Assembly: GCA_965223325.1 (NCBI GenBank)
Contig: CBDCWI010000001.1
Coordinates: 704,001-768,000 of the forward strand
Length of the DNA: 64,000 nucleotides
Direction: 5' to 3'
Source of the DNA: Candidatus Multivoradales bacterium
GTDB lineage: Bacteria; Acidobacteriota; Thermoanaerobaculia; Multivoradales; Multivoraceae
Positions 22,641-28,595 of the stretch are shown piece after piece. The notes under the pieces are model-generated. The model was given only the letters and a program-made list of their open reading frames with translations. It was not told the origin of the DNA and ran no database searches. The position numbers were made by a program, and so were the translations under genes. Every line of letters begins with the position of its first letter. The stretch's first letter is position 1.

Positions 22641-24248
<1,608 letters not shown>

Positions 24249-24273
24249 GTCCCAACAACAGAATCCCTCCTCC

Positions 24274-25206
24274 ATGAGCTACGACCGCATTCTTTTCACC
24301 GACGGTGGCGCCAGCCCCAACCCCGGACCAGGCGGATGGGGCGTCGTGAGTATCGACCCCGCAAGCGGCGAAACCACCGACCTCTCAGGCGGCGAAAAGG
24401 AAAGCACCAACAACCGCATGGAGCTAACTGCCGCCATCAAGGCCCTCGAGTCCCTCGCCCTCGGCTCGCGCGTGCAGCTGGTCACCGACTCCAAGTACCT
24501 GCGCCAGGGCATGACGGAGTGGCTACCGCGCTGGATCGACAACGGCTGGAAGCGCAAGGTGGGAAAGAAGCTCGAGCCGGTCAAGAACGAAGACCTCTGG
24601 CGACGGCTGCACGAACTCGAGAAGCGCCATCAGGTCACCTGGAGCTGGATCAAGGGCCACGCCGGCCACGAGCACAACGAACGCGCCGACGAGCTAGCCA
24701 CGCGTGAGATCGAAAAGCGCACCGCCCTCGAGACGGCCAGTCAACCAACACGGGAACCCGCTGACTTCGAGGTCTTCCTCAAGATCACCTGCAACAAGAC
24801 CAAGGGCGCGTGGGCAGCGCAGGTTGACACCTCCAGTGGCAAACAAGAAGTTCTGACCGGGCGCCGCGACGGAGTCTCAGCCAATCAGCTCGACCTCGAA
24901 GCAGCAGCCGCCGTCCTCGAGCACCTCCCCCGCGGCACCGTCGCCTTCCACACTGGAAGCGACTACCTACGCCGCGGCGCCACCGAATGGGTAGCCAGCT
25001 GGAAGCGCTCCGGCTGGACCACCAAGGCAGGCACCCCCGTCCAGAACCGCGCCCTCTGGCAGAAGCTCGACGACATCCTGCGCACCAGACGCGCCGGTGG
25101 AAAGCCCGTGACCTGGCCGAAAGAGCCAGCGGCAAAAGAAACCCTCGAGGCGCTCTACCCGATCGCCAAAGAAGTGCAACAGGGAACCCGCGAACCAACC
25201 CACTGA
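24274..25206 (+). CDS. rnhA: Ribonuclease HI with a second, degenerate RNase H-like domain
   Basis: Domain 1: TDGG..PNPGPGGWG, TNNRMEL, TDSKY, WIKGHAG...NERADELA. Domain 2: SANQLDL, TGSDYLRRGATEWVASWKRSGW, VQNRALWQKL. Confidence 0.92.
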   Translation: MSYDRILFTDGGASPNPGPGGWGVVSIDPASGETTDLSGGEKESTNNRMELTAAIKALESLALGSRVQLVTDSKYLRQGMTEWLPRWIDNGWKRKVGKKLEPVKNEDLWRRLHELEKRHQVTWSWIKGHAGHEHNERADELATREIEKRTALETASQPTREPADFEVFLKITCNKTKGAWAAQVDTSSGKQEVLTGRRDGVSANQLDLEAAAAVLEHLPRGTVAFHTGSDYLRRGATEWVASWKRSGWTTKAGTPVQNRALWQKLDDILRTRRAGGKPVTWPKEPAAKETLEALYPIAKEVQQGTREPTH

Positions 25207-25213
25207 ACCGGCC

Positions 25214-25528
25214 AAGGCGCGCGCATGAAGGCGCGACCTGCGAAGCACGAGCATGCAGGACCAACCATTCCGGCTCCGAGACCAACCAATCCGCGCAAGC
25301 CGCCGAAGGCGCGCGCATGAAGGCGCGACGTGCGAAGCACGAGCATGCAGGACCAGCCATTCCGGCTCCGAGACCAACCAATCCGCGCAAGCCGCCGAAG
25401 GCGCGCGCATGAAGGCGCGATGTGCGAAGCACGAGCATGCAGGACCAGCCATTCCGGCTCCGAGACCAACCAATCCGCGCAAGCCGCCGAAGGCGCGCGC
25501 ATGAAGGCGCGATGTGCGAAGCACGAGC
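25214..25528. repeat. Tandem repeat, 92-bp unit x about 3.4, non-coding
   Basis: AAGGCGCGCGCATGAAGGCGCGA... starts at 25214, 25306, 25398 and 25490 (period 92). Copies differ at only a few positions and have no unique spacers. Confidence 0.95.
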
Positions 25529-25572
25529 GTACACCCCCCTCATCCCACTCGGGCATCGCGCCAACTCCGAGA

Positions 25573-25861
25573 GGGCGGAGAGTGGAGCTCGGGACTGCCC
25601 GCGGAGCAGTCAGACGGTAAAGGCGCAGGATCCAGCTTAGGGGTGCACGGCGTGCGGGGCGGATCAGGGTGGGTAAGTGTCTGAGCGGAGCACCCACCCA
25701 AGAACCAGGCCGCGATGGACCAAGAGAAACCAACGAAGACCGCCGCGCTACCGGCGAAGCGCAGCGAGTTTTGCCCACCCCCGCCCCGCGCCCCGGGCAC
25801 CCCTTAGCTGGATGCGCCGGCCGTCGCGGAGCGGGCAGTCCCGGAGCTCCACTCTCCGCCC
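25573..25861. repeat. Long imperfect inverted repeat (~290-bp palindromic element, REPIN/MITE-like)
   Basis: GGGCGGAGAGTGGAGCTC-GGGACTGCCCGC (25573-25602) matches the reverse complement of 25831-25861 with one indel. Inner arms ATCCAGCTTAGGGGTGC...GCGGGGCGG and CCGCCCCGC...GCACCCCTTAGCTGGAT also pair, as do GGGTGGGTAA and TTGCCCACCC. Confidence 0.88.
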
Positions 25862-25917
25862 GGCGACCTGGCACACCGTCACAATCCTGCACCCCCCACC
25901 CCCTGCACGCCACGACA

Positions 25918-25959
25918 CAATCCTGCCCCCAATCCTGCCCCCAGTCCTGCCCCCAATCC
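25918..25959. repeat. 12-bp tandem repeat (CAATCCTGCCCC) x3.5
   Basis: CAATCCTGCCCC CAATCCTGCCCC CAGTCCTGCCCC CAATCC, followed by ATCCC repeats. Confidence 0.9.
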
Positions 25960-25986
25960 AATCCCATCCCATCCCAAAAAGGCCGG

Positions 25987-27678
25987 TTAACCGCGTTCAG
26001 CAACCCAGCGCGCCAACGCCTCCCGATCGATCTTGGCGTTATGCCGAATGTCGACCGGAAACCCCGGATGAAACTCGATCCGCTCAATCTCACGACTCGC
26101 CGCATGCCGCCCACAAAGCTCAAACAGCTCTGCCCGCAACTCACCCTGGTCGCGCCCCCGAGACTCAACCTCGAGCTCAACACAAAGACCAGCAACAACC
26201 GACCCGTCATCAGCCAGAACCCCAACCAACGCCGACCGCCGAACGTCAGGATGCGTATTGATCGGACCTTCAGCGGCAATCGAATAAAGCGTGCTGAACG
26301 GCGTTTCGACCCGATGCGCCTTACGCCCACACATGAACAGCCGCCCCCGCCGATCGAAATACCCCACATCCCCGGTACGATGCCAGATCACCCCCCCGAC
26401 CAGGACCTTGTGGAAGGCGTCGGCAGTGGGGCTACCGACATAGCGCGGGCTCACGTTCGGGCCGGTGACCATGATCTCGCCGATCTCGCCAAGAGTCCGG
26501 GTCTTGATCTCGCTGATGTCGGAGCGGTCGTGCATCGGTTCGTCGGTGATCGGCACGATCTCGACCGAGACCTCCGGCAGCGGCCGGCCGACACAAACGC
26601 CGGCCCCTTTGCCTGTCTGCTCGCCGGCGCCCTCACGGATCTCAGATGATCCAATCGTCGCGATCGGAAGACACTCGGTCGCACCGTAGGGAGTGTGGAC
26701 CTCGACCTCGCTTCTGAGGCATGCCGCCAAGCGCTCGACAGACTCAGCGCGCGCCGGCGCACCGGCCGAGATCACCCGTTCGAGGCTCGGAAGTTGCCGG
26801 CGGTTGAGAGTGCAGTAGCGCCCGAGCTTCTCGACCAGCGCCGGGCTCATGAAGGCATTGGTGCACTCGTAGCGCTCGAGCGCCGCGAGGAGCTTCTCGG
26901 GATCGGCCGCGGCCGGCTGGCTGGCATCCATATCGGGGACCACCGCCGCCATGCCGAGAGCTGGCCCGAAGAGAGCGAACAAGGGAAAGGTCGCGAGATC
27001 GCGTTCGCCAGGCGTGATACCGAAACACTCGCGCAGCATGTCGACCTGCGCGGCGAACATGCCATGAGTGTAGAGCGCCCCCTTCGGAGGGCCGGTACTC
27101 CCGCTGGTAAACAGCACCGCCGCTTCGCTCGCCGCCCTCGATCGAGGCAACTCGAACTTCGCTTCTCCCAGGAGCTTTGCACCCCGGCGCTCGAGTTGCG
27201 CCTGGGTCATTCCCACGCCGGGTAAGAACCGAGGACCCACGGTGACCGCACGGCGCACCGTCGGGCGCCCCCAACCCAGCAACAGGCGAGCGATCTGGGC
27301 GCGGTGCACTCCCAGAAAAGCCACTGGGCCTACATCGGCGAGCGACCGCCGTACCCACTGTCGCGGAAGGCCGGGATCGATCAGAACGGGCACCGCCTCG
27401 ACTCGAAAGAGCGCGAAGACGAGGACAAAGAAGTCGAGGCCGGGCGGCACGAAGACAACACAACGATCACCGGCCGACCAACCGTCAGCCCGCAGACCGG
27501 CGGCCAGCGCGTCGACCCGGCGATCGAGGACTCCCGCCGACAGCTCGACAAACGATCCGTCGCGCTGGGCTACGGCAACGGCCAGACGCTCGGGATCCTC
27601 CTCGGCCAGAAAGCGTAGATGATTGCTGACGTTGACGGTGGCGGTCGGTTCCGCCGCTCGATTCTCTTGCGTCCTCAC
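25987..27678 (-). CDS. oleC: OleC-like AMP-dependent ligase (beta-lactone synthetase)
   Basis: LFTSGSTGPPKG, TPYGATE, WHRTGDVG, CGRKAHRV and the OleC-typical tail FPVDIRHNAKI. GTG 27678 overlaps the oleB stop (GTGA). Confidence 0.9.
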   Translation of the reverse strand: MRTQENRAAEPTATVNVSNHLRFLAEEDPERLAVAVAQRDGSFVELSAGVLDRRVDALAAGLRADGWSAGDRCVVFVPPGLDFFVLVFALFRVEAVPVLIDPGLPRQWVRRSLADVGPVAFLGVHRAQIARLLLGWGRPTVRRAVTVGPRFLPGVGMTQAQLERRGAKLLGEAKFELPRSRAASEAAVLFTSGSTGPPKGALYTHGMFAAQVDMLRECFGITPGERDLATFPLFALFGPALGMAAVVPDMDASQPAAADPEKLLAALERYECTNAFMSPALVEKLGRYCTLNRRQLPSLERVISAGAPARAESVERLAACLRSEVEVHTPYGATECLPIATIGSSEIREGAGEQTGKGAGVCVGRPLPEVSVEIVPITDEPMHDRSDISEIKTRTLGEIGEIMVTGPNVSPRYVGSPTADAFHKVLVGGVIWHRTGDVGYFDRRGRLFMCGRKAHRVETPFSTLYSIAAEGPINTHPDVRRSALVGVLADDGSVVAGLCVELEVESRGRDQGELRAELFELCGRHAASREIERIEFHPGFPVDIRHNAKIDREALARWVAERG

Positions 27679-28595
27679 TGACTGCCCGCCCCTAGAAAGC
27701 TCATGACCCTCTGCGTGACGGCAAGGCGCTCGTCCTCGAGCACGAAATGGCCGGCTTCGGGAAAGGCCTCGAACTCGGCCTCCGGGCAGCGGCGCTGCCA
27801 CTCGGCGTAGAAGTCCCGGTCGAAGATGAAGTCCTGAAGGCCGAAGAGGATGAGCTTGGGCACCTGGGTGAGCTTGCTCAAGCCAGCGGCCGTCGCATGA
27901 ACGTATTCCCAGGTGGGATGCGCCGGGCCAAGGGGAATGTCGGTGACAAAGCGGTGCACCGCGAGTCGATTCGCCCACGAGTCGTAAGGTGCTTTGTAAC
28001 CCGCGACTGCCTCGTCATCCAGGCCCCGGATCGCGCAGCGTTCGACGGTGCCGCGAACGAAGAGGTTGAGGCCCCGCACCAGCAATGCTCCCAGAAGTGG
28101 TGTTCGAGCGAGCCGCAGCTCAGGCATCACGGGCTTGCCTTCTGGCAGCGGAAACGCCGAGGTGTTGAGGAGAACCAAGCGCTCAACGCGCTCGCAATGG
28201 CGCGTCGCCCAGGACGACGCGATCATGCCACCCCAGTCGTGAGCGATGAAGGTCACGCGATCGAAGCCGAGGGCGTCGATCAAAGCGTCGAGCTCAGCCA
28301 CCCGGCGCTCGAGGGTGAAGCTCCAGTCAGCAGCTCTCGGCTTCTCCGACAGCCCGCACCCTATCCAGTCAGGCGCGATGACCCGCCGGCTCTGGCTGAC
28401 CGGCGGAATCAGGTGCCGCCAGTGGAAGCTCCACGTCGGGTTGCCGTGCAACATGAAGACCGGTGACCCCTCGGGAGCGCCCTCTCTCGAAGCTTCATCG
28501 AGGTAATGCAGACGAGCTTGTTGCCCTCCGATGTCGAGGTCCAGCCAAGCGGAGCGCAGGTCTCTGATTGCCGCACGGCAGGCGAATTCGTTCAC
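27675..28595 (-). CDS. oleB: OleB-like alpha/beta hydrolase (haloalkane-dehalogenase-like beta-lactone decarboxylase)
   Basis: LHGNPTWSF, APDWIGCGLSEKP, nucleophile HDWGG, FVTDIPL and AGHFVLED; located between oleA and oleC. Alternative start GTG 28697. Confidence 0.88.
   Translation of the reverse strand: MNEFACRAAIRDLRSAWLDLDIGGQQARLHYLDEASREGAPEGSPVFMLHGNPTWSFHWRHLIPPVSQSRRVIAPDWIGCGLSEKPRAADWSFTLERRVAELDALIDALGFDRVTFIAHDWGGMIASSWATRHCERVERLVLLNTSAFPLPEGKPVMPELRLARTPLLGALLVRGLNLFVRGTVERCAIRGLDDEAVAGYKAPYDSWANRLAVHRFVTDIPLGPAHPTWEYVHATAAGLSKLTQVPKLILFGLQDFIFDRDFYAEWQRRCPEAEFEAFPEAGHFVLEDERLAVTQRVMSFLGAGSQ

What the first reader, a model, noticed from the sequence alone, without database searches (positions are those of the whole stretch)
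24700..26400. Local strand-specific codon skew on both sides of the repeat/palindrome element
Seen by eye: the last ~138 oleC codons (25987-26400) switch to G/T endings. All 15 Gly codons I read there are GGG or GGT, His is CAT and many Val are GTT, whereas upstream oleC uses GGC, GTC and CAC. The 3' half of rnhA, on the other strand, favours C/A endings (GCA, AAA, CAA, GAA, CCC). Both amount to G loss on the top strand (C loss on the bottom strand) on either side of the element, while protein motifs are conserved. Inference: a local mutational footprint of repeated ssDNA exposure or processing (C->T and C->G on one strand), possibly an undescribed activity of the element.
Basis: partly seen in the sequence, partly recalled or inferred. 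Interest (0 to 1): 0.7.

Follow-up and report, generated by a model that had tools for sequence, protein, structure and literature searches.

The report
Strand-skewed codons beside hairpin repeats
The ends of two facing genes have had their silent codon positions rewritten so that one DNA strand is poor in G and T, and the same thing happens beside many copies of a hairpin repeat in this genome, which points to an undescribed strand-specific process tied to the repeat.

Summary
The last 138 oleC-like codons (25987-26397) have G/T at 80% of third positions against 51% upstream. This is the most extreme of 20,768 windows in the genome. The rnhA tail is skewed the complementary way (20th lowest).

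None of 7 oleC and 9 rnhA orthologues shares the skew. That includes a same-genus genome with the same gene order but no element.

The skew recurs. Coding flanks of intergenic regions with multi-copy repeats reach |z|>=4 in 43 of 556 cases, against 15 of 2762 without repeats. Both flanks skew on the same strand. Polarity follows the orientation of a mini-hairpin repeat in 18 of 20 flanks, not the replication arm.

It is not an assembly chimera, a foreign patch or replication skew.

Mutation and selection could not be separated, because no close relative exists to polarise changes. Two weak tests showed no mutational asymmetry.

Best reading (0.45): recurrent nicking or gapping of the hairpin strand exposes the other strand. 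Main rival (0.25): selection for an A/C-rich, unstructured transcript.

The parts
24274..25206 (+). rnhA, a 310-aa protein with two RNase H stretches. Third positions are enriched in A/C, most strongly from about 24700 to the stop.
   Evidence: NF001236 RNase HI scores 249 bits against a cut-off of 160, and PF00075 matches in 2 stretches. AC3 is .66 in the first half and .73 in the second. z = -5.86 for the last 138 codons.
25214..25528 (+). Tandem array of a 92-nt unit, 3.4 copies. Each copy carries the mini-hairpin GTGCGAAGCAC.
   Evidence: Tandem Repeats Finder gives period 92, 98% matches. The 11-mer occurs 37 times in the genome, 33 of them intergenic, and 33 of 37 lie on the C-rich strand.
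25573..25861 (+). Long imperfect palindrome (about 290 nt hairpin). It is shared with at least 8 other loci of this genome.
   Evidence: Inverted repeats I1 and I2. BLAST finds other copies. Pairing is kept among 5 copies, with 8-9 compensatory pairs.
25862..25986 (+). C-rich, G-poor spacer with 12-nt repeats (CAATCCTGCCCC x3.5). It is G-rich on the bottom strand. Homology with other copies ends near 25897.
   Evidence: The first 100 nt after the palindrome have A+C .61-.82 in 9 of 9 copies.
25987..26397 (-). oleC-like tail, the last 136-138 codons (the C-terminal subdomain). It has been recoded to G/T-ending codons, so the top strand is A+C .65.
   Evidence: The sequence is homologous to orthologues right up to the stop.
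26398..27678 (-). Rest of the oleC-like gene, with ordinary codon usage (GT3 .51).
   Evidence: NF006754 scores 618 bits against a cut-off of 478. The OleC models score 559 and 544 bits, below their cut-offs of 850 and 900. PF00501 covers residues 26-413.

Best explanation
The hairpin-repeat element imposes a strand-specific change on about 0.4-1 kb of DNA on both of its sides, in place. The strand complementary to the hairpin strand loses C (and A), so the hairpin strand becomes A+C-rich. Purifying selection keeps the proteins, so the change shows up mainly at silent codon positions: G/T endings in oleC, which is read from the other strand, and A/C endings in rnhA.

The most likely cause is inferred, not shown. 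The hairpin strand is nicked repeatedly, and each nick is widened into a gap. The many RAYT-like HUH nucleases of this genome may do the nicking. The complementary strand is then single-stranded, or becomes the sole template for repair, in both directions from the nick. Its deaminated or damaged bases become fixed.

A nick widened into a gap exposes the same strand on both sides, as observed. Resection of a double-strand break would expose opposite strands on the two sides.
For: (1) The effect is extreme and local: z = 9.5, rank 1 of 20,768.

(2) It is missing from 7 of 7 oleC and 9 of 9 rnhA orthologues. A same-genus genome keeps prfC-rnhA-oleC convergent but has no element and ordinary composition.

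(3) It is linked to repeats. Flanks reach |z|>=4 in 43 of 556 cases beside intergenic regions with >=4 repeat partners, against 15 of 2762 with none. This holds in every class of intergenic length. It also holds in well-supported genes only: 26 of 255 against 8 of 1535.

(4) Left and right flanks skew on the same strand: r = .32 over 278 repeat-bearing regions.

(5) The sign follows hairpin orientation in 18 of 20 flanks with |z|>=2.5, against 14 of 20 for the replication arm. It follows the hairpin in the 4 flanks where the two predictors disagree. Pooled over 23 oriented regions, z is 6.4, 5.7, 5.6, 6.4, 4.7, 3.1 and then about 1 on the 5' side, and 5.2, 2.9 and then about 0 on the 3' side. 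574 control regions give about 0.

(6) The DNA just after the palindrome is A+C-rich in 9 of 9 copies, although it is not homologous between copies beyond about 35 nt. It was therefore converted in place, not carried by the element.

(7) In 800-kb samples, the repeat-poor congener has 1 island at |z|>=5 and 8 repeat-bearing intergenic regions. This genome has 4-7 islands and 22-41 such regions.

(8) The oleC tail protein is accelerated: terminal branch 1.07 against 0.22 for the congener. The N-terminal part gives 0.82 against 0.47.

(9) Joint loss of C and A from one strand is the textbook signature of single-strand deamination (my own knowledge, as in vertebrate mitochondrial DNA).

(10) The genome has 28 Y1_Tnp matches. 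E. coli TnpA_REP cuts single-stranded DNA on either side of its hairpin, at a distance (passages of PMC3479197).
Against: - No polarised evidence of a mutational bias exists.
- G000-specific amino-acid replacements in the tail run AC>GT 12 against GT>AC 8. This is the same ratio as the unskewed part of the gene, 27 against 19.
- Private substitutions among 8 repeat units run GT>AC 8 against AC>GT 11. The test is underpowered.
- At fourfold sites G rises as much as T. GGG (11) beats GGT (4) and CGG (12) beats CGT (3), which plain C>T does not predict. It needs an added pull towards G/C endings.
- The boundary in oleC is a step within about 60 nt, not a decay.
- Some copies have unskewed coding flanks: C1 56.5 kb, C1 1218 kb, C2 2336 kb.
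- One homogeneous repeat family of 41 regions has none.
- No link between the RAYT-like genes and this hairpin was shown. The two genes examined score below the curated RAYT cut-off: 66.8 and 36.7, against 80.
Confidence: 0.45

Rival explanations
1. Selection on RNA. Transcripts that read through the element in the hairpin-strand sense (rnhA direction) must be poor in G and U, and therefore unstructured, around the hairpins. Possible reasons are loading of termination factor Rho, termination before antisense transcription of oleC goes far, or correct folding of the hairpins. Silent sites of both genes were recoded to serve this.
For: - Polarity follows hairpin orientation.
- The long hairpin has more G-U cells on the plus strand (about 15) than on the minus strand (about 4). 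This hints that the plus strand is the folded one.
- Islands sit mostly at gene 3' ends: 20 of 34 in well-supported genes. Repeat-bearing regions are often convergent: 94 of 278, against 98 of 1381.
- The spacer and tail as top-sense RNA fold at -122.6 kcal/mol, against -248.9 for the next 539 nt.
- rho is present.
- The step-like boundary suits a functional unit.
- G and T are both raised at fourfold sites, as expected if any keto base will do.
- Neither polarised test shows a mutational asymmetry.
Against: - There is no general sense-oriented C>G rise after stop codons in this genome.
- U is depleted too, which Rho binding does not require (my own knowledge).
- The rnhA part of the tract is translated, so Rho could not load there.
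- More than 130 silent sites over 400 nt would each need to be seen by selection.
- Some islands span divergent promoters, e.g. C1 1548.5 kb.
Confidence: 0.25
2. Insertion preference. A/C-rich, unstructured tracts existed first. A single-strand transposase drops the hairpin repeats into them in a fixed orientation.
For: - It would explain the association and polarity without any effect of the element on its flanks.
- There is no relation between copy divergence and skew.
- There is no asymmetry inside the units.
- Y1 transposases need single-stranded DNA (abstract and passages of PMC6006769).
Against: - The congener has about the same number of islands as the repeat-free part of this genome, so the excess here travels with the repeats.
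- The orthologous rnhA-oleC locus of the congener has ordinary composition.
- The A+C-rich stretch always begins right after the palindrome.
- The origin of the tracts would still be unexplained.
Confidence: 0.1
3. Replication-associated skew, locally exaggerated. An example would be long single-strandedness of the lagging-strand template at a hairpin block.
For: - At first pass, 40 of 48 islands agreed with the replication arm.
- The mini-hairpin lies on the C-rich strand in 33 of 37 copies.
Against: - The 40 of 48 is largely a baseline effect. With strand-specific codon baselines the four classes are balanced: 11, 10, 16 and 9 at |z|>=5. Raw windows give only 1.4-1.8 to 1.
- Where hairpin orientation and replication arm disagree, 4 of 4 flanks follow the hairpin.
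Confidence: 0.07
4. A recombined patch from a donor with different codon usage. The change point lies near the hinge between the two domains of the enzyme.
For: - The boundary is sharp, at codon 427.
- This is just after the end of the PF00501 match, at residue 413.
Against: - The tail still groups with its own relatives and is closest to the congener.53 identity, the same as the N-terminal part.
- G/T-ending usage is not the codon usage of any plausible high-GC donor (my own knowledge).
- The same skew occurs in many unrelated gene ends and in rnhA on the other strand.
- No second copy of the tail exists in the genome.
Confidence: 0.03

Closest known systems
REP / BIME / REPIN repeats with their RAYT (TnpA_REP) HUH nucleases
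   Same: - Short G+C-rich hairpins in many intergenic copies, often clustered and downstream of genes.
- The genome encodes Y1 HUH transposase homologues whose best curated match is the RAYT model.
- E. coli TnpA_REP cuts single-stranded DNA on either side of the hairpin (passages of PMC3479197).
   Different: - Only about 24 regions carry this hairpin core.
- It sits in 92-nt tandem units next to a 290-nt palindrome.
- There are 28 Y1 paralogues rather than one. The scores are below the RAYT cut-off.
- No adjacency of nuclease genes and hairpins was shown.
- My searches found no report of a compositional footprint on flanking genes.
Strand asymmetry from single-strand deamination (replication skew; vertebrate mitochondrial heavy/light strands)
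   Same: One strand is enriched in G+T and its complement in A+C. The effect is strongest at silent sites and independent of gene orientation. The comparison itself is from my own knowledge.
   Different: - The scale is a kilobase, centred on a repeat.
- Polarity is set by the repeat rather than by the replication fork.
- One edge is step-like.
Rho-dependent terminators and transcription attenuation at BIMEs (recalled, not read here)
   Same: A C-rich, G-poor, weakly folding stretch downstream of a gene and of hairpins. rho is present.
   Different: - The tract is 0.5-2 kb long and reaches into two coding regions.
- U is also depleted.
- There is no genome-wide terminator-like C>G signal.
Strand-coordinated mutation clusters (kataegis; AID action at R-loop-prone switch regions; recalled)
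   Same: C>T together with C>G on one strand, bounded tracts, and G-rich runs on the affected strand (sequence).
   Different: - Here the proteins are conserved, so the change must have built up site by site under purifying selection, not in one event.
- No deaminase is implicated.

Membership tests
REP/BIME-RAYT system | Short imperfect palindromes repeated in many intergenic regions | tested here: met
   The core GCGAAGCAC occurs in 24 intergenic regions. The 11-mer occurs 37 times, 33 of them intergenic. This copy number is low for a REP family.
REP/BIME-RAYT system | Conserved GTAG or CGTC tag at the foot of the hairpin | not tested
   Seen only by eye. GACG precedes the stem in some units and GATG in others. 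No systematic count was made.
REP/BIME-RAYT system | A RAYT gene passing the curated model and flanked by its REPs | tested here: inconclusive
   There are 28 PF01797 matches, 26 of them over the Pfam cut-off. For 2 of the 28 examined, NF047646 is the best hit but scores below its cut-off: 66.8 and 36.7, against 80. Flanking hairpins were not examined.
REP/BIME-RAYT system | Nuclease cuts the hairpin strand | not testable with these tools
   This needs biochemistry.
Replication-associated strand skew | Polarity set by the replication arm | tested here: not met
   Counts are balanced after a strand-specific baseline. 4 of 4 discordant flanks follow the hairpin.
Rho-dependent terminator | C-rich, G-poor, weakly structured RNA downstream of the stop codon | tested here: met
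   Region 25987-26400 has C 165 and G 86. The fold is -122.6 kcal/mol, against -248.9 for the neighbouring stretch.
Rho-dependent terminator | Termination depends on Rho | not testable with these tools
   rho is present at 704.7 bits against a cut-off of 509. No RNA run is listed.
Horizontally acquired or recombined patch | The patch has a different phylogenetic affinity from the rest of the gene | tested here: not met
   Identity to the congener is .53 in both parts. The tail tree places it with its own relatives, with weak support.

The most novel reading that the evidence does not exclude
REP-like hairpin repeats, probably through strand-specific nicking by RAYT-type HUH nucleases, create a kilobase-wide, strand-coordinated mutational field. 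This field rewrites the silent sites, and speeds up the protein evolution, of whatever genes lie next to them. It would be a bacterial counterpart of mitochondrial-type or kataegis-type single-strand damage, and an unrecognised cost and evolutionary force of such repeats.
Probability: 0.4. Interest if true: 0.8.

Novelty: new variant of a known kind. Interest (0 to 1): 0.66.

Why it matters
Local mutation-rate and mutation-spectrum differences in bacteria are usually put down to replication or transcription. Here a repeat family sets the strand polarity of a very strong compositional shift in neighbouring genes.

If the cause is mutational, intergenic hairpin repeats are local mutators, and their past activity can be read from the codon usage of flanking genes.

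If the cause is selective, silent sites of two genes have been recoded over hundreds of bases for a transcript-level function of the repeat. That would be an unusually strong case of selection on synonymous sites.

Either way it warns against reading odd codon usage at gene ends as horizontal transfer. It also shows that ORF-based gene callers can lose such genes: my first pass missed oleC.

Tried and rejected
**Searches that found nothing**
- Rfam over 23500-28500 at E<=1: no match.
- Sigma-70 promoter scan over 24000-27000: 0 sites. Terminator-like sites: 5, against 3.8 expected.
- Metagenome scan for close oleC relatives: 237 pattern matches, none confirmed.
- Element searched in 25 relatives: one 41-nt match at E 1.7e-4, otherwise none.
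- Earlier findings of this scan: nothing near this place or on this theme.
- Literature searches for flank skew at REPs: none found.

**Sequencing runs**
- No RNA holder was listed.
- The contigs laid carry no polymorphism in the island, so no SNP polarisation was possible.

**Sequence-level ideas that failed**
- KOPS/Chi-like reading of the G-rich 12-mer: GGGCAGGA occurs 234 against 164, which is not strongly polar. The best polar 8-mers (TGGGGGAG, 144 against 34) are unrelated.
- Shared motif in 170 A+C-rich tracts: only composition and repeat-derived words.
- Overlapping gene on the A+C-rich strand: ORFs 25669-26649, 25677-26261 and 25155-26369 have no Pfam hit. Long ORFs are expected where T is scarce.
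- General 3'-end effect on codon usage: the meta-profile is flat.
- General C>G rise after stops: absent.

**Analyses that were muddled or corrected**
- Orientation analysis over all repeat families. The large component (125 regions) is composite: 21 of 29 follow the element and 10 of 29 the replication arm. A second family gives 9 of 15, and a third has no skew. The pairwise version may be inflated by similarity between A+C-rich tracts.
- My identity figure for the C1/C2 duplicate (.576) is a mis-registered comparison and should be ignored.
Full report
**Setting.** The window is G000:C1:704001-768000 of a 6.69-Mb, 64% G+C genome in two contigs. Three genes matter here.
- rnhA (24274-25206, plus strand) follows prfC. 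It encodes a 310-aa protein with two RNase H stretches.
- It faces an oleC-like adenylating enzyme (25987-27678, minus strand).
- That gene in turn follows an alpha/beta-hydrolase gene.

The OleC models score 559 and 544 bits, below their cut-offs of 850 and 900. The name oleC is therefore a likeness, not a curated call.

Between the two genes lies a 780-nt element:
- 3.4 copies of a 92-nt unit, each with the mini-hairpin GTGCGAAGCAC
- a palindrome of about 290 nt
- a C-rich spacer with 12-nt repeats

- Third positions of the last 138 oleC codons are A .04, C .17, G .46, T .34. The genome values are .09.46.33.13.
- A likelihood change point lies at 26397 (support 26355-26412), with GT3 .51 before and .80 after.
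- All 15 Gly codons are GGG (11) or GGT (4). His is CAT 6 of 6. Val is GTT 8 of 12.
- Given the amino-acid sequence, the tail has z = 9.48, the top of 20,768 windows. The rnhA tail has z = -5.86, the 20th lowest.
- My first ORF caller failed to call oleC. I added the gene by hand, and a second caller found it.
- Contigs of three runs bridge the switch with 0-1 differences. These runs may be the source samples.

**It is not a property of the genes.**
- Seven oleC orthologues (39-53% identity) have GT3 .41-.56 in the same 138 codons.
- At aligned identical residues the orthologues use C .52, G .33, T .09. This genome uses C .16, G .46, T .35.
- Nine rnhA orthologues have AC3 .31-.63 in the second half, against .73 here.
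- The same-genus genome G001 keeps prfC-rnhA and a convergent oleC. It has a gap of about 1.5 kb, no element and ordinary composition throughout.

**It is not a foreign patch.**
- Protein identity to the congener is .53 in both the tail and the N-terminal part. The tail still falls with its own relatives, although with weak support.
- Its terminal branch is long: 1.07 against 0.22 for the congener. The N-terminal part gives 0.82 against 0.47.
- The change point lies just past the end of the PF00501 match, at residue 413. I take this as coincidence, because many unrelated genes show the same thing.

**It recurs.**
- A third-position scan found 48 islands.
- In a per-gene scan, 46 windows reach |z|>=5. 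Of these, 34 lie in well-supported genes, and 20 of those 34 are within 30 codons of the stop.
- Coding flanks of intergenic regions that share repeats with >=4 other regions reach |z|>=4 in 43 of 556 cases, against 15 of 2762 for regions without partners. This holds in each of four length classes.
- In well-supported genes only, the figures are 26 of 255 against 8 of 1535.
- The two flanks of a repeat-bearing region correlate in sign (r = .32) and follow the region's own A+C content (r about .37).
- The first 100 nt after the palindrome have A+C .61-.82 in 9 of 9 copies. Homology between copies ends about 35 nt past the palindrome.
- An 800-kb sample of the congener has 1 island at |z|>=5 among 544 genes, and 8 regions with a repeat partner. 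Five samples of this genome have 4-7 islands and 22-41 such regions.

**What sets the polarity.**
- At first, 40 of 48 islands seemed to follow the replication arm. That was mostly a baseline effect. Lagging- and leading-strand genes differ by 7 points in GT3. With separate baselines the four classes are balanced: 11, 10, 16 and 9 at |z|>=5. Raw windows give 1.4-1.8 to 1.
- For the 24 regions with the mini-hairpin core, the sign of 18 of 20 flanks with |z|>=2.5 equals the hairpin's orientation. For the replication arm the figure is 14 of 20. The 4 flanks where the two predictors disagree all follow the hairpin. One region (C2 1345 kb) contradicts both. The two flanks of one region are not independent.
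- Pooled over 23 oriented regions, the skew forms a plateau of about 0.10 per site for 400-500 nt on the 5' side and about 200 nt on the 3' side beyond the intergenic region. 574 control regions give about 0.
- Broader family-level orientation tests were muddled by composite regions.
- One homogeneous family of 41 regions shows no skew at all.

**Mechanism.**
- Same-strand skew on both sides rules out resection of a double-strand break, which would expose opposite strands (inference).
- Polarity tied to the hairpin, non-homologous flanks converted in place, and an excess of islands that travels with the repeats all favour a process that starts from the element.
- I favour recurrent nicking and gapping of the hairpin strand. 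This leaves the complementary strand single-stranded, or as the only repair template, on both sides. That strand then loses C and A.
- The genome has 28 Y1 HUH homologues. The best curated match of the two I examined is the RAYT model, below its cut-off. E. coli TnpA_REP cuts single-stranded DNA on either side of its hairpin, at a distance (passages of PMC3479197). This link is inference only.

**Evidence against a purely mutational reading.**
- G rises as much as T at fourfold sites, and GGG and CGG are preferred.
- The edge in oleC is a step.
- Polarised amino-acid replacements show no extra bias: 12 against 8 in the tail, 27 against 19 in the rest.
- Private substitutions in 8 repeat units show none: 8 against 11.

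**The main rival is selection for an A/C-rich, weakly folding transcript.**
- In favour: the fold is -122.6 against -248.9 kcal/mol for the neighbouring stretch. rho is present. More G-U cells lie on the plus strand of the hairpin.
- Against: there is no genome-wide C>G rise after stop codons. U is depleted as well. Part of the tract is translated.

**Known or new.** My searches found no paper that describes a compositional footprint on genes flanking REP-like repeats. I saw listings only, and passages for PMC3479197 and PMC6006769. Strand asymmetry from single-strandedness is a known kind of effect. A kilobase-scale version centred on, and oriented by, a repeat would be a new variant.

Noticed in passing
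G000 C1:55-58 kb and C2:2-5 kb: The two loci give mirror-image flank statistics, and a 60-nt probe from C1 is found in the reverse complement of C2. This is a duplicated or twice-assembled segment near a contig end. My identity figure for it was mis-registered.
   Followed up: partly
whole genome (e.g. L085, L087): There are 28 matches to the IS200-like Y1 transposase family, in ORFs of about 270-410 aa. For the two examined, the best curated match is the REP-associated tyrosine transposase model, below its cut-off. Several lie in or beside skew islands, e.g. C1 1306 kb, 1727 kb and 1917 kb.
   Followed up: partly
L040 (G005:C52, rnhA): The second half of the rnhA orthologue in another genus has third positions G .61, C .22 (AC3 .31). 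This may be an island of the opposite sign in a different genome.
   Followed up: no
window 25862-25986 and 26340-26397, bottom strand: There are dense G runs: TGGGGGCAGGAT x3.5, and GGGGGGG..GGGG..GGGG..GGGGG right at the change point. These could form G-quadruplexes or favour R-loops. Seen by eye, not scored.
   Followed up: no
window 26397 / oleC codon 427: The switch in codon usage falls just after the end of the AMP-binding N-domain match (residues 26-413). The recoded part is therefore essentially the C-terminal subdomain.
   Followed up: partly
G000 C2:4491652-4496883: A gene of 1742 codons has alternating windows of strong G/T and A/C third-position skew (z +8.2 and about -6.4). It probably has internal repeats.
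   Followed up: no
whole genome: GC skew shows C1 entirely C-rich on the top strand, with switches in C2 near 0.36 and 3.51 Mb. The arms balance only if C1 is inverted relative to C2.
   Followed up: no
window 24274-25206 and relatives: rnhA encodes a tandem double RNase H protein of about 300 aa. This form is conserved in most relatives searched, with matches reaching query residues 265-303 in 9 loci.
   Followed up: no
41 intergenic regions genome-wide (component 2): This is a very homogeneous repeat family: 810 of 810 edges are orientation-consistent. It has no flank skew (2 of 41 with |S|>=2.5). It is a useful internal control, showing that repeats as such do not cause the skew.
   Followed up: no
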